Counted from the whole stretch's first letter, positions 14,041 through 40,144 are shown. The stretch is DNA of 63,864 nucleotides, filler included, from Kipferlia bialata (GCA_003568945.1; 4 parts of 4 records of this genome joined end to end with filler, not necessarily neighbours in it); one strand, 5' to 3'. Program-made: numbers and translations. Notes: generated by a model not told the origin, from the sequence alone.

Positions 14041-14670
14041 ATGGCTCGTCGTCCCGCCTGTTGCTACCGCTACCAGAAGAACAAGCCCTACCCCAAGTCT
14101 CGCTTCTGTAGGGGAGTGCCCGACCCCAAGATCAGAATCTACGATCTTGGCAACAAGAAGGCTGATGTGTCTGAGATGCCCTACTGCTTCCACCTTTGCT
14201 CTGGAGAGAAGGAGCAGGTCTCCTCTGAGGCTCTTGAGGCTTGCCGTATCGCTTGCAACAAGTACATCACCAACCAGTCCGGCCGTGAGTCCTTCCACCT
14301 GAGGATCCGTGTCCACCCCTTCCACGTGCTTCGCATCAACAAGATGCTTTCCTGTGCTGGTGCCGATAGGCTCCAGACCGGTATGAGAGGTGCTTGGGGA
14401 AAGCCCCAGGGCACTTGCGCCCGTGTCGCCATCAACCAGCCCCTGATGTCCGTCCGCTGCAAGGAGTCCGCTCGCCCTCACTGCGCTGAGGCTCTTCGCC
14501 GTGCCAAGTACAAGATTCCCGGCCGTCAGTTCATCGTTGCTTCTGACAACTGGGGATTCACCAAGTGGACTCGTGAGGAGTACCAGGAGCTCGAGGAGGC
14601 TGGCAAGCTCAGGTCTGATGGAGTGATCGCCAAGCTCATCAGCAACAAGGGCAAGTTCCCCACCGCTTAA
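14041..14670 (+). CDS. RPL10: 60S ribosomal protein L10 (uL16)
   Basis: Intronless 209-aa [38 protein letters not shown]...[31 protein letters not shown]. Confidence 0.99.
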
Positions 14671-23732: not shown

Positions 23733-26700
23733 AAGCTCTTACTGGCCATCCTCACAGCATGTGGAGTGCTGTCCTGCCTAGGTATGTATGTATATACATA
23801 TATATATATATTGTATTATGTGTTTGAATATATATATGTATGTGTCACGGCATGTTTTGTGCTATCCTGTCTAGGTATCTAATGCGTACTTATGTTTAAG
23901 TATGGACTCATATTCGAATCAATGGTCTCTCCTCCCCTGCTCTCTCTCACACACACTCTCTTACTCCGGTACACAGATTCTCTCTCCCTATATATATATA
24001 TGTTTACATATTGACAAGGAGTGTGGGTCTCATTCTTCAGGATATGCACGCCCCCCCCCTGACATCGTGTCTCAATATATGTGTGTGTATATGTGTAATC
24101 ATGTATGTATCATTTAATCTCATTCTTCAGGATGTGCCCTGCTCCCCTCCGACAACCTTGTTGCAGCCTGTGCCATCTACATTGTGGGACTGTTTGGGTT
24201 CCATGCCGCAAACATCTTCTACGGTATGTCTGGCAGTCACCTGCATACCATGTATATCTTGCTTTATATACACTATTACGGTGCATATATGTATTACACG
24301 CATATACTCCCTAGACTAGCCTCCTGCATTAACTATATATTATTCCAGACTCTTTTCTCCCCAGACCTGGCATTGTTTCTCTGTCTCTCTTTCTCTATAT
24401 GTATATATGAATACTATTCTATATACACTCTCACCCTTAGACTCCCTGCTCCCCGGCATTGTCTCGTCCAACGAACAGGCAGACACAGTGTCTGCCATGG
24501 GATTTGCGGCAGGTACATATATATAGTATATATAGTATATATAGTATATATAGTGTATATAGTATATATAGTGTATATAGTATATATAGTATATATAGTA
24601 TATACAATAATGTACATATTCTAATTGCTGTATACAAGTGAACAGGCAGACACAGTGTCAGCAATGGGATTCGCAGCAGGTGTGTAAGATTTAGCATATG
24701 TATGTATGACTTGTGTGGGTATATAGTATTGTGTTCCATGTCCCCACACACACATACACATAAACGCACTATGTATTTGTGTAATCTTCCTCTCTCCCTC
24801 TTATCTCTGACATTAGCCTCCATTTCCTAGTCTGCCATATTCTCTTTCTCTCATTCTGGCTATATATATATATATATATGTATAACCTCTCTCTCTCTCT
24901 CTCATCTCTAAGGCTACATTGGTGGTGGACTCCAGTTCTTGGTCCAGCACACTCACTCTCTCTCTCTCTATATATATATACATGTATATATATATCCCCT
25001 CTCTCTCTCATCTCTTAGGCTACATTGGTGGTGGCCTCCAGTTCCTGGTCTGTGTCTACCTCTCTCTCTCTCTCTATCTCTCTCCCTCTCTCTACATATA
25101 TATACTTACCAAAGGATACATTGGGGGTGGTCTGCAGTTCCTGGTCTGTGTCATCCTGTACCTGGTACTGGACAGCACTGTGCTAGCTGTCAAGGTATAC
25201 TTATATACCACTATACATACATATATACTATTATATATAGATATATATGCTATGTGTGTGTGTGTGTCTGTGTCATCCTGTACCTGGTGCTGGACAGCAC
25301 TGTACTCGCTGTGAAGGTATACTGTATTTATATATATATATATATATATGTGTGTCTCTGTGTAGTTTTTGATTACGAATAGTACTTATTGTGCTTACCC
25401 TAGATCTTTGCCTTCACTGCCAGTGTATATATGGTAATATGAATCAATATATATAAACATATGTGTATTCATATCATGTGTAGTACTAATTGCTAACCCT
25501 CTGATCTCCTTTGCCTTCACCGCTGTCTGGTGGACCATCTTCACCCTGCCCCTGCTGTTCAACGTGCCAGAGATAGGTATAACAAAGGATATATAATACT
25601 GTATATCCATTTCCATTGTTAGTTACTGAATTATTGTATACATATATGAGTGTATGTTCTCTTCACCCTGCCTCTACTGTTCAATGTACCTGAGATAGGT
25701 ATATATACACATGCATATGGGTAGAGAGCAATATATGTATGGCGGAGTGTATAAGTGTAACTGTATCTATAGTATGAGTTCACCCTGCCCCTGCTCTTCA
25801 ATGTACCTTAGATACTTGTCTCATGCTAGGCTCTGCCACAATGCCTGTGTCCATGGTGCCTACTATATACATCATTGTACATTAGGTATATCATTGTACC
25901 TGTCTCACTGTAGGCTCTGCCGATGTGCCTGTGTCTGTGCCTGACCGTGCAGAGGGAGAAGCAGAGGGTAGTGACAGCACAGAGGTGTATACAGTATGTA
26001 TATACTCTGATATGTATATACTCTGATATATATATACTCTGATATATATATATATATGATATGTATGATATATATGATCTGACCGTGTGGGGGGAGAGGG
26101 CAGTGGCAGCACAGAGGTAAAGAGGAGTCAGTCATAATTGTATATTGTATTCTTCATATTCTCTATTCTACACGTAGATATGTCTCAATAGTACTATTAT
26201 CACCCTTACTCCCGGTCACCAGAAGAGAAGCAGTCATAACCCATATACATGTATTTATGTATATAAATATGTATATATACTATATGTCCTATTAGTCTAC
26301 TAACCCAGGTCACCTCTGAGTCCAAGCAGTCCTTCTGGAGTGTGCTCAAGTTTTCACTGGTGGAGGTGGGGCATATCAGATATTTGTGCATAGATACGTG
26401 TATTCATTTAGTGACGGGTGCCCAAGTTCTCACTGGTGGAGGTGAGGCAGACTATGTATATCGAGTCCTTTTACCTTCTGACACTATATACATGTATTAA
26501 TTGTATCAGGAGTGTCCACAAGTTCTCACTGGTGGAGGTGGGTCTGTTAGTTGCTGTAGTGTTCGAATACATACATAAAATAATGAATTGTTCCAATAGT
26601 GATACATCCCATATATTTTTATATATCCTTCAATCAGGTCAAACTCGTCTACATTTATACATATATATACCAACACCAGGTTGTTGACACCTTCAAGCAG

Positions 26701-26994
26701 GTCAAGCTCCTGTCCAACTGTGCCTTGTTCCTATTGGCATACTTCCTGGTAAGCAGTGCTATACAGTGTGGTATAGTGTATAAAGCATATATAGTATGTA
26801 TATAGTTACTATTATACCTTTCTACATATGAATATGTTATATATCCAACTGTGCCCTGTTCCTGTTGGCATACTTCCTGGTATACACGCTATACCACATA
26901 CACTATCAGATATACTATATACATATATAGGATAAGTACTGCTTTCTATAGACTGTGCCCTGTTCCTGCTGGCATACTTCCTGGTGGGTGAATG

Positions 26995-27027
<33 letters not shown>

Positions 27028-29572
27028 TGTATACTACTTCACTCTATAATGTGCCCTGTTCCCATTCTTCCTGATGTGTGAATATGTATATATGAATATC
27101 TATTCTTTCCATTATGTGTGTCTTGTGCCAACAACCCCACTCCAGTGCACTGACGGTGCCGATACTATCATCTCCATGACCATTGACATTGGAATAGATA
27201 TATATATATATATATTAGATCTGCCCCTCAGCTCAGTACATTGACGGTGCCGATACCATCATCTCCATGGCCATCGACATCTATCTCTCTCTCTCTCTCT
27301 CTCTATCTCTTTCTAATTCCAGTACATAGACGGTGCCGATACCATCATCTCCATGGCCATTGACATTGGTATGAGCCTCGGGTTCCCAGCAGAGTCGCTG
27401 ATCATAGTGCTACTGATGGTAAGTATATACAAGATATTTGTATTTAGTATGTAACTGTATATGGCAGTATATCCAGCAGAGTCACTGATCATAGTGCTAC
27501 TGATGGTGAGTAAGTATAGATATATACAAATTATGGGTACTATATATATGTGTGTAGGTATAATATATGTGTTATTGTATGAGCCTCGGGTTCCCAGCAG
27601 AGTCTCTCATCATAGTGCTACTGATGGTGAGTAAGTATAGATAGATACACAATATGGGTACTATATACATATATGTATAGGCATAGTATAAGTGTATATA
27701 TATGTATGAGCCTCGGGTTCCCAGCTGCTCATGGTAAGTTTGTATTAATATTTACATGCACTGTGTGTTTCATGTTCACTATTGTGTTCACAATATACGG
27801 CCCTTCAAGCACAGTCTCTGGTCTCAGGAATTCATGGTTCTTTAGACACACTCTCTCTCCCCTCACCCAAGGTTCAGTTCATCGGCATGCCCATGACCCT
27901 GCTCTTCACTAAGGTACAGGAGTATGTATCATTTACTAGAATCATATTGATGCATCATACACAATATGGTTCACTAAGGTATTTGAGTATACTAATACAT
28001 GGCGATAGAAGGTATATTGCAGTAGCTACTAATTATATTGGATTCTGACCCATCAGCTTGTGTCCAAGATTGGTCCCAAGAAGGGTGTCATTCTGTGCTG
28101 TGCAGGATACCTTCTCGTGGTGGCACTAGGTACATGTATATATATATATATATATATATCACTTTATATATATATATATACGTAGATCTGGTACCGATAC
28201 CTTCTCGTGGTGGCACTAGGTACGTGTAGATACACTCCATATACTATATGCACTTATAGTAGTTTAGTATATATATATATATATATATAAATTCCATGCT
28301 TACTCAATATCCACTGTGCCAGCATGTCGACATCTAGGCCGCATACATTTACTGCTGTCTCACCCCCCAGGCACCTTCATATCCAATATATATAATATAT
28401 TAATATATGTCTGTGTGGGTGTGTTTATACAGGGCTCTGTTCTGGAAGTGTATATAAATGGATTGTTGTTAACATCCAGGCACCTTCATGTCCAAAGTTG
28501 TCTGGTTCTACTTTCATGATTTACTATTTGGACTACTACTTTTGTATTCTTTAGTAGTTCTGTTTGTTGTTAATATCCAGGCACCTTCATGTCCAATGTG
28601 GTCTGGTTCTACGTCCTGGGTGCATTGGTGGCATGTGTGCAGGGACCCATCCAGGTATGTATCTATATATATATAGTCTATATATATATATATATATATA
28701 GTCATGTAGATACATACATAAGTGCATACTCTTATGCTCTGGGTACACTGGTGGCATGTGTGCAGGGGCTCATCCAGGTGAGTACTATTACTACTACACA
28801 TACTATAGACAAGTGATAGAACTATTATTGATAACTATTTACATCGTCTATCTAGTAGTATTGCCTTTCTTTTCCTACAAATGGTTGGTTTGTTTGTTTT
28901 GCTATTTGTTTGGAAACACTGTTTTGTCAACAGCATTGTTTGGCTGGCTGTTCTCATCTCTAGGCCCTGTCCCGCTCCCTCTTCACAAGGCTGGTCCCAG
29001 CAGACTGCGAGGGAAGGTTCTTCGGTGAGTGTGTATACTACGTATATATACTCGTTATATACACTGGTGTTTCCTCTTAGGTTTACCTCAAAGTGCATCA
29101 CCACCTAGGAGTATTGAAGTCACAGGATTTGTGTATTGTATGTGGACTTTGTTACAGCCCCAGTATACCTACACTAGGACTCTACAACATCATTGGCAAG
29201 TTCTCCACCATCATTGGCCCCCTTCTCATCGGGGTCATCACCAGTGTCACTGGATCTACGCGGTTGAGCGTCGCGTCTCTCTCCATCCTCTTTATCGGGG
29301 GTGGCGGAGTGCTTCTTCTGGTAGACTTTGACGAGGGAGCCAAGCAGGCACTTGCATACCGCGTAGTTAGTCCAGGTACCTACTTGCGATTATACATATA
29401 CGTATTTATGTATATCCTTGTCTGTTCATCGCGTAGATTTCTGACATCAGGGATGAAGGGCAAGGAGGCTCAGAAGGAGGAGGAGGGAGAGGGAGAGAGA
29501 AGTAGTGTGGATGAGGGAGAGAGTGGTGATACCGCCCCAGTGGTTATCAGCACCAACGTGTATCTGACATGA
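23733..29572 (+). CDS. MFS transporter, UMF1/Atg22 (bacterial YxiO-like) family; many introns, 5'-partial
   Basis: Spliced exons give FGFHAANIFYDSLLPGIV...DTVSAMGFAAGYIGGG...FAFTAVWWTIFTLPLL...LFLLAYFLYIDGADTIISMA...VQFIGMP...KIGPKK...VQGPIQALSRSLFTRLVP...GRFFGLYNIIGKFSTIIGPLL. Confidence 0.9.
24517..24605. repeat. 9-bp intronic minisatellite (tatatatag)n
   Basis: About 9 tandem units in an MFS intron. Confidence 0.85.
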
Positions 29573-30099: not shown

Positions 30100-33000
30100 C
30101 CAAGAGACTAATCGTCACCCACAGATTGAGATGTCCAGTGTAATGAAAATGAACGTGGTAAACATTTCCCTCGTCTGTCCCAACAGGTAGGGACTGGTGG
30201 ACAGGCCAGCCAGCCCATGAAGTAAGCGGTGGATTCTGTCTAACGTCTGAGACAGCACTGTCAGTTGTATCAGTGTCACCCGTAGATTGAGAAGTCTAGT
30301 GATAACAAAGAGGACAGGGACCATTTCACCCGGTTGTCCCAACAGACAGGGACTGGTGAACAGGCAATGCAACCCATGAAGAAAACGGTGGATTGCGGTT
30401 CAGCAGCAGTATCCAAGACCTTCACTTTGCTTTTCGCTTTGCTCTAATCGAAGCAAGCCATGCGCGCTTGTGATGTCTAGTGTAGACGCTAGAGAGTGGA
30501 GCCACTTTCAAAAGAGGTCGGACACGACGATGCCAGCCAACACAGTAATGCTACATCTAAGGTCGGGTCCATAACCTCAATGTGTTGGAATCTGACATCA
30601 TATCACTTGGCCTTAGACACTGTATGGCAAGTTAGGTCAGGGTACACGCCGAGTTGTCAATGGTGACCAAGACGCACTCGACCTATTGTCACTGGTGGAC
30701 AGGGTGCCTCGTCTGGGACAGATAGGCAACTTGCCTATCATAGGCAAGACTCAGTGTCTCAGCATGAGACTCTCATGCAGTCCTCGAGGAGTCAGTAGCA
30801 GTTGCCAGGACATCCACGCTAATCGCGCAACACGTCAGACACTCCTGTGTTGTCAATGGTGATCACAGTGTACTGTAAACCCATGAGGCTCTGGCCCCTG
30901 CCGACACTGCCAAAGGAGACAAGAGGAGACTGGTCTCGGAGGCAGATACAGTCATCGAGTGTACTAGTCTGGCCTGGAAGTCACACTCAGTGTGACACTA
31001 AGGCAAGTGCATAACAAGTCGGAATACCCGCATGTAGAGATGCCAACACCAGTAAGGCTTGGCCCATGTGTTCAGTGACACACTAAACCAGAAGGACCAC
31101 TTTGCTAAACATATGTGCAACAAGTGGGACCAAAGGGACCTATGGAGGTCACTAGGCTTTATCTTACTCAATTGAGGTCATCATGTGACAGACAGGTAGC
31201 CCTATAGGGCTGTCCAATGCTGATACCTCATAGGGTCACTCCACTGTGTGGCTAGTTGACTCATACGTATCAGACTTGACGGCTTCGCCGATTGCAGTCA
31301 AGTGAACACATTCGCAATACCCCAACGTACGTCCCTGAAAGCAGAGTCTTGCATCTGACATGTTACACTCAATTTTTGTGGAGTTCGGTATCTTGCTGAC
31401 ATATGACACAAACAGACCTACATCAGGCAGCCTGATGGGGTTGTGGTCCAGTGAATAGAGACCCATGAACAACAGACTGTCCTAATTATTTCGGCAAACT
31501 CCGACAACGACATGTATAGGGGGAGAAGGCATGTATCATGGCAGGGCTGTTGTGACACCAACCGCTGTTGTCCAGTGCTTGTGCTTGTGTCTCGGTTGAT
31601 TCCACTAGAATCATAGTCAGTAGCCACTGAGGCATTGGGTATGGAGCCTATCGTCACGTACGAGGTAGTGGTCCAGTACTGCAGTGGACACAGCAGATGA
31701 CATGGCAGAAGACACAGACTGTCCCAAGAACGGACATACTAACACAGGCCACTAAAGACATAACAGGCCGACAGTGTGACGCCACTGCCATCGGGATGTC
31801 AGATGGCACTGTTCAAGGGACAAGACAACCCACTACTATCAGACAAATCTCTCCTCTACCCGCTCTCCCATTATCCCACTGCAGTGCAGTCAGAGAGACA
31901 CTTCCACTGTCTTCGTGCCACGAAGTTCGTGGGAAGCTTTGTTTCGACTGCGGCCAAGGTCTGGACTCTCATCCACCACAGACACAGGCCTCAGTAGCAC
32001 ACACCTTGGCCTGTGTGACTCTGAAGGGTACTCAGAGCATACCCCACTTGGAATTTCAATACCAACAGGGTACCAGCTGACAGAGCAGCCACCTGGGGTT
32101 GCCGTCAAGTGCAAAAGTCAGTCTACAGGTCAAACTTGCTCCAGATGCATCGGGGTATGAGTCCCACAGTACCACGTTGGAGTTGTTATCAGGAGACAAG
32201 ACCTACAATTGGCCACTTGGGATTGCCGTCAAGTGCACATCTTCGAGCGGAAGAAGAAGTTTGCTGAGCCACTTTCAAAAGAGGTCGGACACGAACATGT
32301 CAGCCAACACTGCAATGCTGCTGTCTCAGGTCGGCTCCAGAGCTTCCATGTTGTGTGTATCTGACACACACTAACACTCGCATTTAGCCATTGCGTGGAG
32401 AGTTAGGTCACGGTACACACCGGGTTGTCTATGGTGACTACCTCTCAGTCGTGTATTGTCTCTTGTGGGCAAACTGCCTCGTACGGCACAGATAGACATG
32501 GTGCAACCCAGCGACTCAAGACTCCCACGAGAGGTCTGAGACAGCACCGTCAGCTGCATCAGTGTCACCCGTAGATTGAGAAGTCTAGTGATGACAAAGA
32601 GGACAGAGACCATTTCCCTCGTCTGTCCCAACAGGTAGGGACTGGTGAACAGGCAATCCAACCCATGAAGAAAGCGGTGGATTCTGTCTGAATCATCCTG
32701 AGGTCCAGCAGCAGTTTCCAAGACCATCTCTAATCGAAGCAAGCCATGCGCCCTGGTGATGTCTAGTGTAGACGACATGACAGAGGACTACTTTCGAAAG
32801 AGATCGCCGACCTCAGGTTGGACACGTACATGTCAACCAACACCGCAATGCTGCATATAAAGTCGGGTCCATAGTCTCCATGTGTTGAAATCTGACATTG
32901 TATCAGTCTGCTATAGCCAATGCATGGCGAGTAAGGTCAGGGTACCCGCCAGGTTGTCTATGGTTACCAAGACGCAGTCGTCCTATTGACACTGGTGGTC

Positions 33001-34770
33001 AGGGTGCCTCGTCTGGGACAGAAAGGCAAGACTCAATGTCTCAGCCTGAGACTGTTAGGCAGTCCAAGAGGAGTCAGTAGTAGTTGCGACGACATCCACG
33101 CTAATCGCGCAACAAGTCACTCACTCCTGTGTTGTCAATGGTGATCAACGTAAGAAGAGTCACAGTGTGCCTTTCACAAGGTACATTAGCTGGGTTTATG
33201 AGCGGACACGTGTATCCTTTACATCACCCAGAACAGTCCTGAATCTCATGTCGAGTCCAGTGTTTCCATGTATGGGAAACCGCGCTGGCCAGCGAAAGTA
33301 GCCATTGCAGCAGTTTTCCACACTTTAGATAGATACACCCAATGTTCCTTGCAGAAACAGACAATGCGCCGCCAGTCCGGCCAAAGTGTCAATAGTCTGG
33401 GTGCTAGGAGTGGATCTCTTTAGAATGCCCTAGTCACCAGCATACATGGGTCAATGTGATCATCTGCACATCATTGCAGCCATGCCCTGTGACAAAAGAG
33501 TCTGCAGCCTCTTAACACTGGCCAGACCAAACTATTGGGTCTTGCCAATGTAGAAGGGTCCAGTGGCAATAAACAGGGAGCATCGCAAGACTTTCGTGGT
33601 TGTTTCTGTACAGGCGGAGACACATCCATCCCCGATGTCATTACCAAACCCGGTTGTCTATGGTGACTACCTCTTGTGGGCAGAATGCCTCGTACCACAC
33701 AGATAGACATGGTGCTACCCAGCGACTCAAGACTCCCAAGAGAGGTCTGAGACATCACTGTCAGTTGTATCAGTGTCACCCGTGGATTGAGAAGTCTAGT
33801 GATAACCAGGAGGACAGGGACCATTTCACCCGGTTGTCCCAACAGAACGTGCCAGGTGAACAGGCAATCAAACCCATAAAGAAAGCTGTGGATTCTGTCT
33901 GAATCATTCTGAGGTCCAGCAGCTGCTACTAAGGTATCCCAGCTAATCGAAGGTAGCAAGCCACGCGCGCTTGTGATGTCTAGTGAAGAGGACAGGACAG
34001 AGGACTACTTTCAAGAGAGGTCGCCGACCTCACGTTGGACACGTGCATGTCAACCAACACCACAATGCTGCTTCTATGGTGACCAAGACGCAGTCGACCT
34101 ATTGTCTCTTGTGGGCAGAGTGTCTCGTCTGGGACAGATAGGCAAGACTCAGTGTCATAGCCTGAGACCCTCTGACAGTCCACCAGGAGTCACTTGCAGT
34201 TGCGAAGACCTCAGCGCTAATCGACCAACATATCATCGGCTCCTGTGTTGTCAATGGGGATCAACGTAAGAGGAGTCACATTGCGGCTGTCACACGTTAC
34301 ATGAGCTGGGATAATGAGAAGACACGTACACCCTATAGATCACCCAGTTCAGTCCTGAATCTCACGTCGAGTCCAGAGTTTCCATGTATGGGAAACCGCG
34401 CTGGCCAGCGAAAGTAGCCGTTGCAGCAGTTCTCCACAGTTTAGATAGATACACCCAATGCTCCTTGCAGAGACAGACAATGCCCCGCCAGTCCGGCTAA
34501 AGTGTCAATAGTCTGGGTGCCAGGAGTTAATCTCTTTAGAATGCCCTAGTCACCAGCATACATGGGTCAACGTGATCACCTGCACATCACTGCAGCCACG
34601 ACCTGCGACAAAAGAGTCTGCAGTCTCTGCCTCTTAACACTGGCCACACCATACAATTGGGCCTCCCCAATGTAGAAGGGTCCAGTGGCAATGAACAGGG
34701 AGCATCGTAAGATTTTCGTGGTTGTCTCTGTACAGGCGATGACACATCCACCCCCGATGTCATTACCAAA
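30100..34770. repeat. Patchwork of degenerate 150-550 bp segmental duplications
   Basis: The block gacagcactgtcagttgtatcagtgtcacccg...ggtggattct recurs at ~30250, ~32540 and ~33750. The block cttgtgatgtctagtg...gtcaatggtgatca recurs at ~30467, ~32753 and ~33970. Segment ~33130-33648 is duplicated at ~34250-34770. Confidence 0.85.
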
Positions 34771-35980
34771 GAACCTCTACCCTCACTCTTAGTGTCTAGT
34801 TCATCAATGTCAAAGAGGGATGCTAGTGTCTCTGGAGAACACAACTAATCCTGGACAGGTATCCACCTCAGCCATGCTGTCATGAACATAGCAACAAGGT
34901 AATCCTCCTGATACGCGGGTATTGACCGACACTGGGCATGTGTGAGGCGAAAACCACGAGTTGTGACATTCGAGATGGACGAAGGTGATGTCACCACATG
35001 TGTAGAAGCCCACTCGTACCCCCACATAACTTGTCTGCCTACAGGCGGTGACATGACATGTCACATGTCCATCCCTGATGTTATGGTGGATTTACTCTCC
35101 ACCATATTGTGAAGTGGACCATACTCTAGCAGAAGATGGACGGTTGTGGGTGACACGGCCCGTCTCCAAGTCAAATGAGCACTACAGCAATACTGTGTTG
35201 GACCATGCGCTGCACTTTTCAGTATACTTTAGGAAACACAGGCCGTTGGATAGGCAACCGATCACAAGCTGCGGTGCCTTAAGGCAAAGGGCAGCAAGGG
35301 TCAGAGGCACAAGACACCGTCCATTCCAAGTATCTTGTCACTCTTAGCCACTCTCTCTATCACACTGCAAAGCCGATGACATTCTTCGATAGGGATGTTG
35401 CCAGTGAAACCGACGGCACCCTCAATGATTTTCCCAAAGACACAAGGCGGACCTGGAGAAACATGTGGGCGATAGAACGTGTAAAGAGTCACTCCTGATC
35501 ATCGCATGCCTCAACCAATACCAAAAAACTCGTGTCACTACCTCTCCAGCCTCCTTTCTAGGCATGGTGGGTCACGCCGACATGTGATGGACATTCGAAC
35601 TAGCAGCCACTCGGGGAGGATGTCTAGTGTGAACGTCACAGACCGGAAGAGGACTGTCCCAGACACACCGGAGTATGTGACACACCCCTACACACACAAG
35701 GTAGTAGGGCACAGCGGATGGCCTGGTCAGAAGAAACAATGCTATCCCGGGACGAACACACAGTGCTTGTGCTAGTGTGACACTAGCCTAGTGTCTCGGT
35801 TGATTCCGACTAGAATCATAGTCAGGGGCCACTGAGGTATTGGGTAGGGAACCTATCGTCACGTACGCGGTAGTGGTCCACTACCGTAGTGAACACACCG
35901 GGTGACATGGCACAAGGCACAGGATATCCCAAGTACGGACATACAAACACATGCTACTAAAGACATAACATGCCGACAGT
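31587..35980. repeat. Pair of ~190-bp diverged direct repeats (31587-31775 and 35792-35980)
   Basis: Both begin gtgtctcggttgattcc(g)actagaatcatagtcag and end actaaagacataaca(g/t)gccgacagt. Confidence 0.85.
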
Positions 35981-36294
35981 TCCCAAGGTCAGAGAACAGC
36001 AAGGACTACTAGTCGTTGACTAGAGTCAGAAGACAATGTCAACTCCCATACTCGTTCTGTCCCTTCGACACGGTTTCTGCCTCCCTAACAAGAGGGCAGA
36101 TTCTATGGAGGCAGTCGGTATGCAGAGAGGCAGTGGTGCGATAACGGCAATGTAGTCCAGTGGTAACATACAACATTGACGACTTCTTATCTGTCCCAAA
36201 GTCCCACGAGGAACCCCTGTAACACATGACGGTATTGGCATATCACAGTGTTGAACCCTGGTTGGATGTGATATGGACCCCAACCCAGTTATAT

Positions 36295-37680
36295 ACACAG
36301 GCCAGATCATCCTACCCTCCCAAGACACGGCAGCCGCTCATAAATGGAGCAGTGGACTACGTTGTTGACGTGTCTTTCTCTCTGGTCCAGAGACTCCTTG
36401 GATAATCTGCACACATGTCACTATATAGAGGTCTCTCACACTCTGTCAGGATGATTGACTCTCTAGGTACCATGTCCGAAAGTGCCACCGATTGCTGCCA
36501 AGTGGACATAATGAGAGGGGGGTACATTGCCCATGGGCGGGCGCATTTTATGTCGGGCACTCCACAGGTGAACAATCAACCAATAGTTGATGACATCAAC
36601 TTGATGTCAAGTGGAACATATGGGAACACCATATGACAAGAGGTGGGCACTCTTACACCTTATACCACCCTCCCAAGACAGGACGGCAGCCAATCAGACT
36701 CATTTGGTTGGGAACACCGGTTGTGACGTGGCTAAATCTCACTTGCAGCACATCATTCTCTGAATGATTGAGACTGATACCATATCCGATGGAGCCGCCG
36801 TTGGTTGCCAAGTGGAGAAAACAATCCGTGCCGAACTACTTCAGGTATTATTCGACGTGCTGGCTACCGATTCCCGCACAGATACCAGAGCCTCCACCAA
36901 CACAATAGCTGAACAGTCCCCAATGGTATTAGGCAGCAGCAGCCAGACCCAGGATACAGTGGCTCCTTCCAGTCTCATTGGGTCCACCGCACACCGTCCC
37001 TGCCTTGGCACTGTCCCTGTCGTCTAACAAGGGGAGAGGATATGTACGTACTCAGGCGGCATGCTGCCCGGTGGAGTTATAGCCAAGTCGATCGAGGGAC
37101 AAGAACCACATAGACCACTTGGGGTTGCTGTCAAGTGAAATGCATCTCGACTCCGGTCCACTATTATCGATATATCTGCCCTGAAAGGATCGCGAATAAG
37201 TGACAGTGAGTGTCAGAGCGGTAGCTGTTCATCTTCATCTTCATTGGGTCCCACCAAGACCCGCCCTACCTTCCTGCAAGGGGGCAGATGACATGCCACA
37301 ACGGTAGGGCTTTGTCAAGTGTTGAAACCGACGACATAGAGGTGTTACTTCCTCAAAGAGCCAACGGGAATGACGTATCGACAAATGTGGTGCATCAGTC
37401 CCACAAGACGGCTGAAACACGGCACGGATATCACACCGTTGAGAAACTAGGGCTGCGATACCCCATGCACTCTGGATCAGACACCCACTCCTAGACCAGA
37501 TCATACCAATACCACCCTCCCAAGACAGCATGGCAGCCATTCAATCGCATTTGGTTGGATTGGGAACACCCATCGTGACCAGTATATATCACTCGCAACA
37601 CATCGTTCATCCACCCTCTCACCGATTGATACTAGGTACCATATCCTATGGAGCCGCCGATTGTTGCCATATGGACACTC
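36295..37680. repeat. Three degenerate copies of a ~190-bp unit
   Basis: accctcccaagaca...ggcagcc followed by taccat(g/a)tcc...gcc(a/g)ccg(a/t)ttg(c/g/t)tgcca at ~36300, ~36660 and ~37500. Confidence 0.7.
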
Positions 37681-40144
37681 TCAAGGTCTTTCTATTGCCT
37701 TTGAGACGGAGCATCGTGTTCCTGGCACTCCTTTGGTGGACATACGTGACAACATCCTTACGGTCTTGAAGGTATTGGGGATATGTGACACCAAGGGCCT
37801 CCATCTTGCCTCTCCGTGCCGCACAAGAACACACCCATGTCCTGTCTCTTTCCAAGCCTATTTGGGTAACAGTACGCCCCTTAATTCCTAAGAGGAGGCA
37901 GATGGTATGCTAGGAGTGAAGCAGCAAGGAACTATGGTACGGCGTACGAGGGCAGCATGAAGAGAGATCGGCAATGACAGTATCCAACAGTCCCCAGGTC
38001 TCACGACCAGCGAAGACATGAGTTCTAACATGTATCCTCTTCCAGTTGCCACACTGCTGTCTCTGGTTCCACTGCATCACTACCTCTATGCAAGGCTAAG
38101 AAGGTCACTGGCAACTGAGAGGGTTGTTGTCCAGTGCAGGAATTATCAAGACCTCTATCAATCTCACCAGAGATTCTGGTTGGGTACATGATGGAAGGGC
38201 TGGAGGTGTAGAGGTCCTTCGAGGGATACGGACACCCAACCAACAACCCACCGTCACTGCTCGCGTCATCAGTCCTCGGATCAATGTATGTCGGTCATCG
38301 TGACACAGAAGGTAGGGGACTGGAGAAAGACATGGTGTCAGTAGCCCGACGCTCATATCGAGGTGGAATCCACATCAGTCTCTGGCCATCACTCTTCTGA
38401 TGTAGGTACCACACGCCCATGTGCGAGGGTGCCACTCGTTGGGGTTGTTGCCAAGTGGAGACCTCTGATACCGGTTGCACTTGCTCCAGGTGCATCGTGA
38501 TAAGAATCCCAATATGTAGGGCGATACATCATGTGGCGTAACAGGCGACATACACAATTCCCATCAGCTGGATCAGAAAGTTCCACTCGCCAGTGAGAGG
38601 GGATACTGCTTGGGGTTGTTGTCTGATGCAGGTAACAACGACCAGGAACATACCGCAATGTATATGGGGACCAGAGACACACTACTGGGGTTCTTAAGTG
38701 CCATGGTACCGAGAACGTCTGCTATGCAACAATGAGACAGATGGCAGAGGGGAAATATGGGACAGGGCTCTGTACAGATGTATATGCCACACTCAATCCT
38801 ATCCATCTCTGTGAGTATGTCATGCTGGAAGAGGGACTGGAATCCAAGCCGGGTCTGAGAGACAGATGACGGAGAGGAGTCTCTGTGACAGAGACGTCTG
38901 TAAGGTCCCACAGCACACTCCTACTGTTACTCCCTTTCCCTTAGGTTACGGCAACACAAACCCTTGCCACTCTGTTCCATCTCACATGACCCCGATAAGT
39001 GTTACCAGCGCCCGTAGGGTATCTAACCCACAAGAAAAGACTGCAAAGGATTGTGTAGTGGGCATACATGGGTCGCTTCTTACTGCACTTGACATCCAGG
39101 TCAAGAGTCCCATACCCTCTTGTCCACTAGTGTGAAAGGGTCTGGTGTGAGCTTCCATCGAATAGGACCTAGCATACACACGAGTATATATCAAATTAGT
39201 GGTAACTATGTATTTTGTTACCCAAATAGCTGAGTGTGCGTGCACATGTACACGAATGTACATACATAGCTAATGTGTCAGGGACACGTACCCATCGACC
39301 CTCCACAGACAGAGGGAGTGCTCAACACAATAAATAGGTCTAGAGGGTGTCTGACACTAGCGCACACGGATGTAGGTTGTGTAGTGGTCATTCCCATGGC
39401 ACATTTGTACTTGACACTCTGTGTTAGAGAGGTATAGAAGTAGGTACCAGAGTATTGACAGAGAACCAGACTTCTTCACTGTCCATCCCCCAAGTACACA
39501 CATAGAAAATACATACCTTCAGTACATTACAGACCACCAGACTAAGTAGTTGCTGTGACTTCTCATACAAACCAGGGGACACACACACTACATCACACAA
39601 CGGGGCCATATATCATCGATCCCCAGGCATTGGTGGTGTGTAATGGCGTGTAACCATGCTGTAGGTATTCAATGTGGCGTGCAGTGTCTGATAGAAGCGT
39701 CGTCTTTCATTGTCCCCAACCCAGACATCTGTATGTGACAAGGTCAGTGTGAAGGAACGATATGTCATGTCATAGGATAGGGAGAAGAAGGGTCTGTCAT
39801 CGAGGAAGAGAGACACCAGACGGACAGCAGCGTCGACACAACGCCTCTGTGGCATACATCTACAGGCCACATGCGATGTACAGGGGATGAGACACCGTGT
39901 TCCTAGGGCACCACCCCTATTGAGGGATGGCCCCGCTCAACGGCCCTAACTCCCTCCTGCAGCCCCTACTCCTCTTGTCCCCCAAGGGGTAGGTGGGAGC
40001 ATGTGCCTACTATTGAGTGATATATAGTAGTAGTAGTGCAAGGGACATACTATTAGGCATACAAGCAATATGAAAGGTATATATATGTGCTATCAACACA
40101 TATGGGTTCTATATAGTATAGTGTTATCAATTACGTGTACTATA

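What the first reader, a model, noticed from the sequence alone, without database searches (positions are those of the whole stretch)
23733..28780. Intronic half-exon copies that diverge mainly at synonymous sites (MFS gene)
Seen in sequence: nearly every exon has 1-3 partial copies in its flanking introns. The exon end at 24473-24512 and its copy at 24640-24679 differ by 4 changes, all synonymous (tct/tca, gcc/gca, ttt/ttc, gcg/gca). The 3' part of exon 25115-25194 and its copy at 25266-25317 differ by 4 changes, all synonymous. GYIGGGLQFLV acceptor copies at ~24913 and ~25019 are also synonymous variants, and SNCALFLLAYFL copies at ~26843 and ~26952 differ only in Leu codons. More copies lie at 27146-27730. 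A minority of copies are degraded (~24041, ~27146, ~27704). Established knowledge: neutral intronic copies should collect mostly non-synonymous changes. Inference: these copies were under coding selection even though they cannot be added into transmembrane helices. One explanation is recurrent recombination or deletion between the direct repeats, which swaps copies into the exon. Others are capture of pieces from diverged alleles, or an unusual RNA-processing route.
Basis: partly seen in the sequence, partly recalled or inferred. Interest (0 to 1): 0.9.

Follow-up and report, generated by a model that had tools for sequence, protein, structure and literature searches.

The report
Introns archive half-exons of old alleles
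In the protist Kipferlia bialata, many introns carry spliced-out half-copies of the neighbouring exon that differ from it mostly by silent changes, likely because faulty break repair between two different alleles left one allele's half-exon stranded in the intron, which would make these introns a record of past alleles and recombination.

Summary
Confirmed and wider than reported. The window is Kipferlia bialata. A nucleotide-level scan of five genes on three scaffolds found 51 exon copies in flanking introns (null 3 in 1695 pairs); 5' halves lie upstream, 3' halves downstream, none reversed. Differences from the exon: 84 silent, 30 replacement (pN/pS 0.11). The correct null (only the live exon selected) predicts 39-52% silent; none of 1800 simulations reached 74%. 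Independent DNA contigs hold exon plus copy in cis at ordinary depth; RNA contigs use the full exons. Silent divergence is uniform (about 0.23) and uncorrelated with replacement divergence, so it looks built in at birth. Best reading (0.55): junction-spanning tandem duplications made between diverged alleles, so each copy was a working exon half until captured. Weak points: no second allele or strain was seen, silent diversity near 0.2 is required, and the intron flanks of most copies do not align. The scan noted junction copies before in sea urchins; one had only 40% silent changes, the neutral level. Not found in print for Kipferlia in nine searches.

The parts
23733..29572 (+). Atg22/UMF1-like MFS transporter gene, 5'-truncated at the scaffold edge; 15 exons: 23733-23781, 24131-24223, 24441-24512, 25115-25194, 25504-25576, 25914-25984, 26309-26365, 26680-26748, 27323-27418, 27872-27913, 28057-28129, 28581-28654, 28964-29024, 29178-29375, 29451-29572
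   Evidence: One open frame; identical to P0001 [Kipferlia bialata] in the last long exon; PF11700, PF07690; two joints seen in RNA contigs
23845..23874 (+). 3' copy of exon 1 with GT; 4 silent, 2 replacement
24640..24679 (+). 3' copy of exon 3 with GT; 4 silent, 0 replacement; the RNA contig carries the exon's letters, not these
24915..24944 (+). outer 5' copy of exon 4 with AG; 4 silent
25021..25056 (+). inner 5' copy of exon 4 with AG; 3 silent; matches a 123-base DNA contig at depth 403
25266..25316 (+). 3' copy of exon 4 with GT; 4 silent; lies with the exon in one 286-base DNA contig at depth 404
25406..25420 (+). 5' copy of exon 5 (one codon deleted near its start, seen by eye); 1 silent
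25660..25698 (+). inner 3' copy of exon 5 with GT; 5 silent
25779..25814 (+). outer 3' copy of exon 5; 4 silent, one stop, donor lost
25830..25851 (+). 5' copy of exon 6 with AG; decayed, 4 replacement changes
26095..26116 (+). 3' copy of exon 6 with GT; 1 silent, 1 replacement
26418..26537 (+). two 3' copies of exon 7 (26418-26441, 26506-26537), both with GT; 3 silent, 3 replacement in all
26627..26646 (+). decayed 5' copy of exon 8; 1 silent, 1 replacement
26844..27066 (+). three 3' copies of exon 8 (26844-26879, 26952-26983, decayed 27050-27066); the first two differ only in Leu codons
27152..27280 (+). two 5' copies of exon 9 (27152-27195 partly decayed, 27237-27280 silent-only)
27473..27725 (+). 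three 3' copies of exon 9 (27473-27505, 27577-27626, 27704-27725 followed by a deletion); the tails of the first two align (11% mismatch)
28196..28219 (+). 3' copy of exon 11, identical over 24 bases, intron tail not alignable
28371..28511 (+). two 5' copies of exon 12 (28371-28387, 28480-28511) with AG
28739..28777 (+). 3' copy of exon 12 with GT; 2 silent, 2 replacement
48089..51620 (+). BUD13 gene on another scaffold with 11 copies of the same kind (junction-anchored ones: 19 silent, 3 replacement)
   Evidence: PF09736
57030..59918 (-). hydrolase-like gene (maspardin-like is a recalled label; no Pfam hit on two short exons) with 7 copies, 8 silent, 2 replacement
60431..62300 (+). phosphodiesterase-like gene end (recalled label; no Pfam hit on two short exons) with 7 copies, 5 silent, 7 replacement: no silent excess in this gene
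52114..53420 (+). unnamed gene with one 3' copy at 52451-52466

Best explanation
These are dead, spliced-out tandem duplications that span one exon-intron junction, and their two units likely came from different alleles, so each copy would have been a working exon half on another chromosome until it was captured. Shown: the geometry (5' halves upstream, 3' halves downstream), the reality of the copies in DNA, their exclusion from the assembled mRNA, and coding-like divergence. Inferred: a break in or near an exon is repaired against the homologous chromosome, pairing through exon sequence. One end is extended past the splice site (or the homolog is cut at an offset) and is then end-joined instead of re-annealed, leaving allele A's half-exon plus splice site in the intron beside allele B's working half. 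Only products that span a single junction and leave one intact exon survive. Later out-of-register exchange between a copy and an allelic exon adds or refreshes copies with the same breakpoint. Silent differences are then inherited allelic diversity (about 0.2); replacement changes are allelic diversity plus decay since capture.
For: Geometry: 30 of 32 downstream copies reach the exon's 3' end, 15 of 19 upstream copies its 5' end, none reversed. 84 silent: 30 replacement, codon positions 22/11/81; counting each site-allele once gives 68: 30. Silent counts fit one rate across copies (chi2 50.8, df 50) while replacement counts are overdispersed (p 0.002), and the two are not positively correlated (rho -0.24); codon-usage saturation would be 0.85, not 0.23. 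In four pairs with alignable flanks (two are copy-copy pairs): 10 silent and 1 replacement vs 9.8 replacements expected (P 6e-4). Changes private to an inner copy are 6 silent, 3 replacement, and two silent sites show three states. GT kept in 28 of 30, AG in 15 of 18, so little decay; copies leave a median of about 35 (3') or 50 (5') exon bases uncovered, as expected if exon homology is needed for pairing; each copy adds about 97 bases to the intron. Breakpoints are modestly enriched for dinucleotide repeats (27 of 48 vs 37.5%, p 0.006). Context from papers: metamonads lack NHEJ and the fornicates examined lack Rad51A and keep two Dmc1 paralogs (PMC8516963 section 8); Dmc1 tolerates mismatches (PMC6719624, PMC11514202, listing only); invasion-extension-end joining makes tandem duplications (PMC13031629 passages); inter-homolog end joining occurs at meiotic breaks (10.1101/2020.06.23.168138 passages); K. 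bialata is reported diploid (PMC5874029).
Against: No second allele or strain was seen: no half-depth variant contig of exon 4 among the 15 pieces listed (3 not shown, records filtered), no Kipferlia locus among 4 metagenome loci, no closer protein than the 66-85% paralog. The published assembly size equals the k-mer genome size, so that strain is not two diverged haplotypes; past outcrossing and later homozygosity must be assumed. Silent diversity near 0.2 is at the top of what I recall for any species. Simple capture predicts alignable intron tails, but only 2 of 48 exceed the 99th percentile of unrelated introns and 5 of 48 the 95th; fast intron turnover or older copies refreshed by conversion must be added. 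In the four alignable pairs silent divergence (10) exceeds the tail clock (4.4 expected). In the worm system the template was not the homolog. The PDE-like gene shows no silent excess (ratio 0.47). The score threshold can compress dispersion and bias the pS-pN correlation downward.
Confidence: 0.55

Rival explanations
1. Selection on copies in cis through swapping: deletion or crossover between the direct repeats promotes a copy into the exon often enough that replacement changes in copies are purged.
For: Repeats lie 84-300 bases apart in direct orientation; splice dinucleotides are kept; same-side copies share breakpoints within 4 bases in 8 of 13 families (null 4.4, p 0.03), as expected from unequal exchange.
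Against: Inference: a copy lost at rate r gains at most about 2u/r silent divergence, so 0.23 needs r near 9u; purging needs Ne*r well above 1, i.e. diversity of 0.5 or more. With such diversity allele capture already gives the pattern. It also predicts silent divergence that varies with age, but silent counts are homogeneous.
Confidence: 0.13
2. Copies are sister-templated snapshots that barely change, while silent sites of the live exon turn over 6-8 times faster than neutral, for example by exon-limited gene conversion among alleles or exon-specific mutation.
For: Simulation reproduces 74% silent when the exon's silent rate is 6-8 fold higher. 14 changes shared by all copies against the exon are all silent, and outer-only changes are 12 silent, 4 replacement.
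Against: Young sister copies should keep near-identical intron tails (simulated 5% divergence always above the 99th percentile) but 46 of 48 do not. Inner-only changes are still mostly silent (6 of 9). No strongly one-way mutation signature (silent GC>AT 36, AT>GC 23).
Confidence: 0.13
3. Copies are used at RNA level by an unusual route, so translation keeps them intact.
For: It would directly explain coding-like conservation. K. bialata has a reduced spliceosome and no snRNA candidates were found (PMC6679479 passages). One intron here ends in TG.
Against: RNA contigs match the full exons with 0 other letters over 25113-25193, 25503-25573 and 25911-25985 and carry the exon form of exon 3; 0 of 48 copies offer a GT/AG pair for seamless substitution; 21 of 51 copies carry replacement or stop changes. 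Contigs at depth 6-8 cannot exclude minor forms.
Confidence: 0.06
4. Ordinary neutral decay with only the live exon under selection, plus detection or mutation bias (the reading given to a sea-urchin case by this scan).
Against: 12 settings of kappa 1-8, GC mutability 1-3 and two age models, run through the same segment trimming, gave 39-52% silent; 0 of 1800 runs reached 73.7%. Detection was by nucleotide score, blind to frame. The simulation treats copies as independent; unique site counting still gives 69% silent.
Confidence: 0.05
5. Assembly chimera of alleles or paralogs.
For: Short-read assembly of a diploid with microsatellite-rich introns; the DNA run may be the source of the window.
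Against: A separate assembly of run X1 holds 98% of 596 sampled 31-mers; one 286-base contig carries exon 4 and its 3' copy at the window's spacing at depth 404, like the other listed contigs (369-498); the paralog differs in residues where the copies match this gene. Copies begin mid-exon, not at shared repeats. Only two of 51 copies were checked this way.
Confidence: 0.03
6. Former whole-exon duplicates used as mutually exclusive exons, recently truncated.
Against: No full-length copy (largest covers 78% of its exon) and 0 of 51 copies in the reversed arrangement that random truncation should also give.
Confidence: 0.03

Closest known systems
Junction-spanning tandem repeats with silent pseudo-splice sites, e.g. 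human F7 intron 7 37-bp VNTR (PMC1557585, abstract read)
   Same: A repeat unit spans the exon-intron boundary; the downstream donor copies stay unused and the first donor is chosen.
   Different: Here units are not a homogeneous minisatellite: tails mostly do not align, both donor and acceptor sides occur, 28 of 45 introns in five genes are affected, and the exon parts diverge like coding sequence.
Intron gain by tandem genomic duplication (PMC3265369, PMC4974935; search listing only)
   Same: Tandem duplication of exon sequence inside a gene.
   Different: There an AG|GT inside the duplicate creates a new intron; here no new intron forms and 0 of 48 copies have the needed sites.
Tandem duplications by strand invasion, extension and theta-mediated end joining (PMC13031629 passages; BRCA1/HELQ papers seen only in its reference list)
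   Same: Same proposed steps and head-to-tail product.
   Different: Those are tens to hundreds of kb and both copies come from one parent; here units are about 100 bases and the template would be a diverged homolog.
Inter-homolog end joining and duplications at meiotic double cuts (10.1101/2020.06.23.168138 passages)
   Same: Offset breaks on two chromatids or homologs can be joined to give duplications or haplotype switches.
   Different: Rare events in mouse, mostly without ATM; not shown to accumulate at exon junctions.
Decaying exon-junction copies in a sea urchin gene (scan note e1-9861148, unchecked)
   Same: Many short dead junction copies.
   Different: 40% silent there, matching the one-sided null; 74% here.

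Membership tests
Junction-spanning tandem duplication (pseudo-splice-site copies) | Same strand, in the flanking intron, anchored at the exon end facing that intron, with the splice dinucleotide | tested here: met
   30/32 and 15/19 anchored, none reversed; GT 28/30, AG 15/18
Junction-spanning tandem duplication (pseudo-splice-site copies) | Copies are left out of the mature mRNA | tested here: met
   RNA contigs over exons 3-6 only; minor forms not visible
Junction-spanning tandem duplication (pseudo-splice-site copies) | Intron part of the unit is duplicated too | tested here: inconclusive
   Clear in 2 of 48 exon-copy and 2 of 13 copy-copy comparisons; weak overall excess over background, p<0.001
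Neutral pseudo-exon fragments | Copy-vs-exon pN/pS near 0.5 | tested here: not met
   0.11; simulations
Intron gain by tandem duplication | AG|GT in the duplicate used to splice out one unit | tested here: not met
   0 of 48; RNA joints use the original sites
Mutually exclusive tandem exons | Full-length second exon with both splice sites | tested here: not met
   Largest copy 78% of its exon
Inter-homolog (allele-capturing) duplication | Copy-specific letters occur in working alleles of the population | not testable with these tools
   No second strain found; contigs showed no second allele of exon 4
Inter-homolog (allele-capturing) duplication | Silent divergence present from birth, independent of decay | tested here: met
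   Homogeneous pS, overdispersed pN, rho -0.24; the threshold may contribute
Theta-mediated end joining products | Microhomology or templated inserts at the junction; pol theta present | tested here: inconclusive
   Dinucleotide repeats at 27 of 48 breakpoints; donor templates unknown; pol theta in K. bialata not checked
Atg22/UMF1 MFS transporter (host gene) | PF11700 above its cut-off | tested here: met
   132 bits vs 24.1

The most novel reading that the evidence does not exclude
The half-exon copies are kept translatable in cis because the cell uses them: as a standing library of interchangeable exon halves swapped into the gene by frequent homology-guided DNA exchange in this Rad51-less lineage, or stitched in at RNA level by its reduced spliceosome in a minority of transcripts.
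Probability: 0.12. Interest if true: 0.92.

Novelty: new variant of a known kind. Interest (0 to 1): 0.66.

Why it matters
Junction-spanning duplicates are known, but copies that are dead yet diverge like coding sequence, in most introns of some genes and almost none of others (28 of 45 vs 1 of 44), need an explanation. If they are captured alleles, one genome holds a readable sample of past alleles. That would give indirect evidence of outcrossing and of very high silent diversity in a free-living relative of Giardia. It would also show a route of intron growth (about 97 bases per event) tied to a repair system reported to lack NHEJ and Rad51. The claim is directly testable with the public assembly and one more isolate. 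The copies also mislead gene prediction: the deposited protein P0001 lacks exons 4 and 5.

Tried and rejected
No whole genome was held, so all counts come from one window. Only 24615-25985 was laid with runs X1 and X2; contigs only, much of it uncovered, so 49 of 51 copies were not checked against contigs beyond the 31-mer share. No holder is on record as RNA; X2 is a guess supported by its spliced joints. Metagenome scan with P0001: 4 loci, 30-43% identity, none Kipferlia. Protein searches: only the paralog P0002 is close. Paralog as donor: rejected, the copies encode this gene's residues. Lost mid-exon introns as the origin of the halves: unsupported, the paralog's DNA runs unbroken through exon-4 bases 25113-25166. 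One insertion of a whole exon splitting the old one: 5' and 3' copies meet within 4 bases in 5 of 9 two-sided exons (null 1.2-2.7, p 0.002-0.06), but 18 exons have copies on one side only; kept as a hint. Outer copies always older: mixed. Copies seen only by protein similarity or by eye (about 24041, 24345, 24818, 26215, 27969) were left out of all counts, as were the repeat-rich minus-strand region 44400-46900 (no reliable model) and a gene near 53700-54350. Pfam gave nothing for 5 of 6 short exons. Literature searches gave no description of such copies in Kipferlia; subscription journals are mostly missing and supplements were not opened. PMC12895298 passages give large Ne but often low diversity for protists, which does not help the high-diversity assumption. 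Scan look-ups by place and by a second word set were empty.
Full report
Identity. The last long exon of the gene matches P0001, named by its source as an autophagy-related protein 22-like protein of Kipferlia bialata. The window is a string of scaffolds joined by N spacers; the piece 23713-47288 is 23,576 bases, the contig length given for P0001. The gene is an Atg22/UMF1-type MFS transporter. Apart from a paralog (P0002, 66% over the aligned length), the 118 other listed hits are 38-49% identical and the named ones are bacterial or UMF1-family. Fifteen exons joined by coordinates give one open frame.

Observation. I built exon models by hand for five genes on three scaffolds and searched each exon against introns by nucleotide score only. 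At score 12 or more there were 51 same-strand hits in 90 flanking exon-intron pairs, against 3 in 1695 pairs with other genes' introns and 7 in 430 non-flanking pairs of the same gene. Downstream copies reach the exon's 3' end in 30 of 32 cases, upstream copies its 5' end in 15 of 19; the other six are internal remnants and none is reversed. The splice dinucleotide is kept in 28 of 30 and 15 of 18; copies cover 16-78% of the exon; intron length rises about 97 bases per copy. Three genes on the first scaffold, modelled roughly and not frame-checked, have a hit in 1 of 44 introns, against 28 of 45 in the five genes. The five were chosen because they showed repeats, so this contrast shows patchiness, not a genome rate.

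Real DNA, spliced out. Run X1 holds 98% of 596 sampled words and run X2 13%, about the share expected for exons alone by my estimate. On 24615-25985, one 286-base DNA contig carries exon 4 with no difference and, at the window's spacing, a second piece with 4 differences that corresponds to the copy at 25266. A 123-base contig fits the copy at 25021. Their depths (404, 403) match the other listed contigs (369-498), so these are not half-depth alleles joined by the assembler. X1 may be the window's source, so this is an independent assembly, not an independent sample. RNA contigs carry the exon form of exon 3, match exons 4, 5 and 6 without a difference, and join 25193 to 25503 and 25573 to 25911, skipping the copies.

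The silent excess. Copies differ from their exons at 84 silent and 30 replacement positions: pS 0.231, pN 0.026, ratio 0.11; by codon position 22, 11, 81. The right null is one-sided: the copy is free and the exon takes only silent changes, which predicts 54-61% replacement. The observed 26% has p 1e-9 to 1e-14. Simulations through the same segment trimming, with transition bias up to 8 and threefold GC mutability, gave 39-52% silent and 0 of 1800 runs reached 74%. Counting each site-allele once gives 68: 30. The excess holds in the MFS gene, BUD13 and the hydrolase-like gene, but not in the PDE-like gene (5: 7). An earlier scan note on a sea urchin found 43 of 107 silent, the null level (not checked).

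What the pattern says. Silent counts fit a single rate across all 51 copies (chi2 50.8, df 50), replacement counts do not (p 0.002), and the two are not positively correlated (rho -0.24, p 0.08); saturation would be 0.85. An ageing clock would move both together, so silent differences look present from the start; the score threshold may add to this. Four pairs have alignable intron flanks (4.5-15% mismatch), two of them copy against copy. Their coding parts differ at 10 silent and 1 replacement site, where 9.8 replacements were expected. Changes private to an inner copy, which a simple serial duplication would make neutral, are 6 silent and 3 replacement. Against a simple story: the flanks of 43 of 48 copies are no more like the real intron than the 95th percentile of unrelated introns, even for copies identical over 24-29 exon bases.

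Mechanism. Shown: junction-spanning head-to-tail geometry, death, coding-like divergence. Inferred: two lineages can both stay under coding selection only if each sat in the working position, that is on different chromosomes. The simplest route is repair of a break against the homolog, pairing through exon sequence, with extension past the splice site (or an offset cut) and end joining. These steps are known to make tandem duplications, though from one parent, in worms (PMC13031629, passages), and inter-homolog joining occurs at mouse hotspots (10.1101/2020.06.23.168138, passages). Metamonads lack NHEJ and the fornicates examined replaced Rad51A by two Dmc1 paralogs (PMC8516963, passages and section 8); Dmc1 tolerates mismatches (listings only). 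Copies leave at least 11 (mostly 25 or more) bases of the exon's 5' part or at least 30 of its 3' part uncovered, as pairing would need, though selection against long decoys could do the same. Shared breakpoints among same-side copies (8 of 13 within 4 bases) and alignable neighbouring tails point to later out-of-register exchange. That first donors win over identical downstream ones is shown for human F7 (PMC1557585, abstract); how the upstream acceptor copies are ignored here is not known.

Costs of this reading. It needs allelic silent diversity near 0.2, faster turnover of introns than of silent sites, and past outcrossing. The published assembly equals the k-mer genome size, with two k-mer peaks (PMC5874029, parts 1-3 of 6), and I saw no second allele or strain. 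I give it 0.55. Swap-driven selection in cis needs the same or higher diversity by my own estimate (0.13). Fast silent turnover of the live exon fits the ratio but not the tails (0.13). RNA use is contradicted for the major form and by 0 of 48 usable splice pairs (0.06).

Novelty. Junction-spanning copies are a known kind; their density here and the silent excess beyond the one-sided null were not found in nine searches, nor in the passages read of PMC5874029 and PMC6679479. Supplements were not opened. The labels maspardin-like, PDE-like and those of the three control genes are recalled working names. Verdict: real, a new variant of a known kind, mechanism plausible but unproven; interest 0.66.

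Noticed in passing
window 25195-25503: The intron before exon 5 ends in TG, not AG, in the assembly, and the RNA contig joins there; the dead 5' copy near 25404 has a canonical AG. The deposited protein P0001 skips exons 4-5, probably for this reason.
   Followed up: partly
window 23733-29572; loci L001-L004: The MFS gene's nearest listed relatives are bacterial UMF1-type transporters at about 40%, intronless in the four loci fetched: probably a laterally acquired gene that gained at least 14 introns; the paralog shares at least one intron position. No tree was built.
   Followed up: partly
window 44400-46900 (minus strand): A region with several acceptor-anchored and donor-anchored repeats of the same look, including three copies of one acceptor-side segment, for which I could not build a reliable gene model.
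   Followed up: no
window 30100-44100: Long gene-poor stretch of decayed 0.2-0.7 kb direct repeats at 72-87% identity, possibly an old repeat or transposon array.
   Followed up: no
window 1-23612 vs 23713-62400: Copy-free genes have short introns (median 75 bases, 50% GC); copy-rich genes have longer, AT- and microsatellite-rich introns (median 207, 42% GC), and even their copy-free introns are longer (median 112).
   Followed up: partly
window, breakpoints of copies: 5' copies are often followed by CT runs and 3' copies preceded by GA, GT or TA runs, a strand-symmetric look.
   Followed up: partly
window 53879-53912 and 53978-54011: A further acceptor-side copy in a gene that was left out of the counts.
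   Followed up: no
window 14041-14670: An intronless coding region that reads like ribosomal protein L10 (recalled label) amid intron-rich genes.
   Followed up: no
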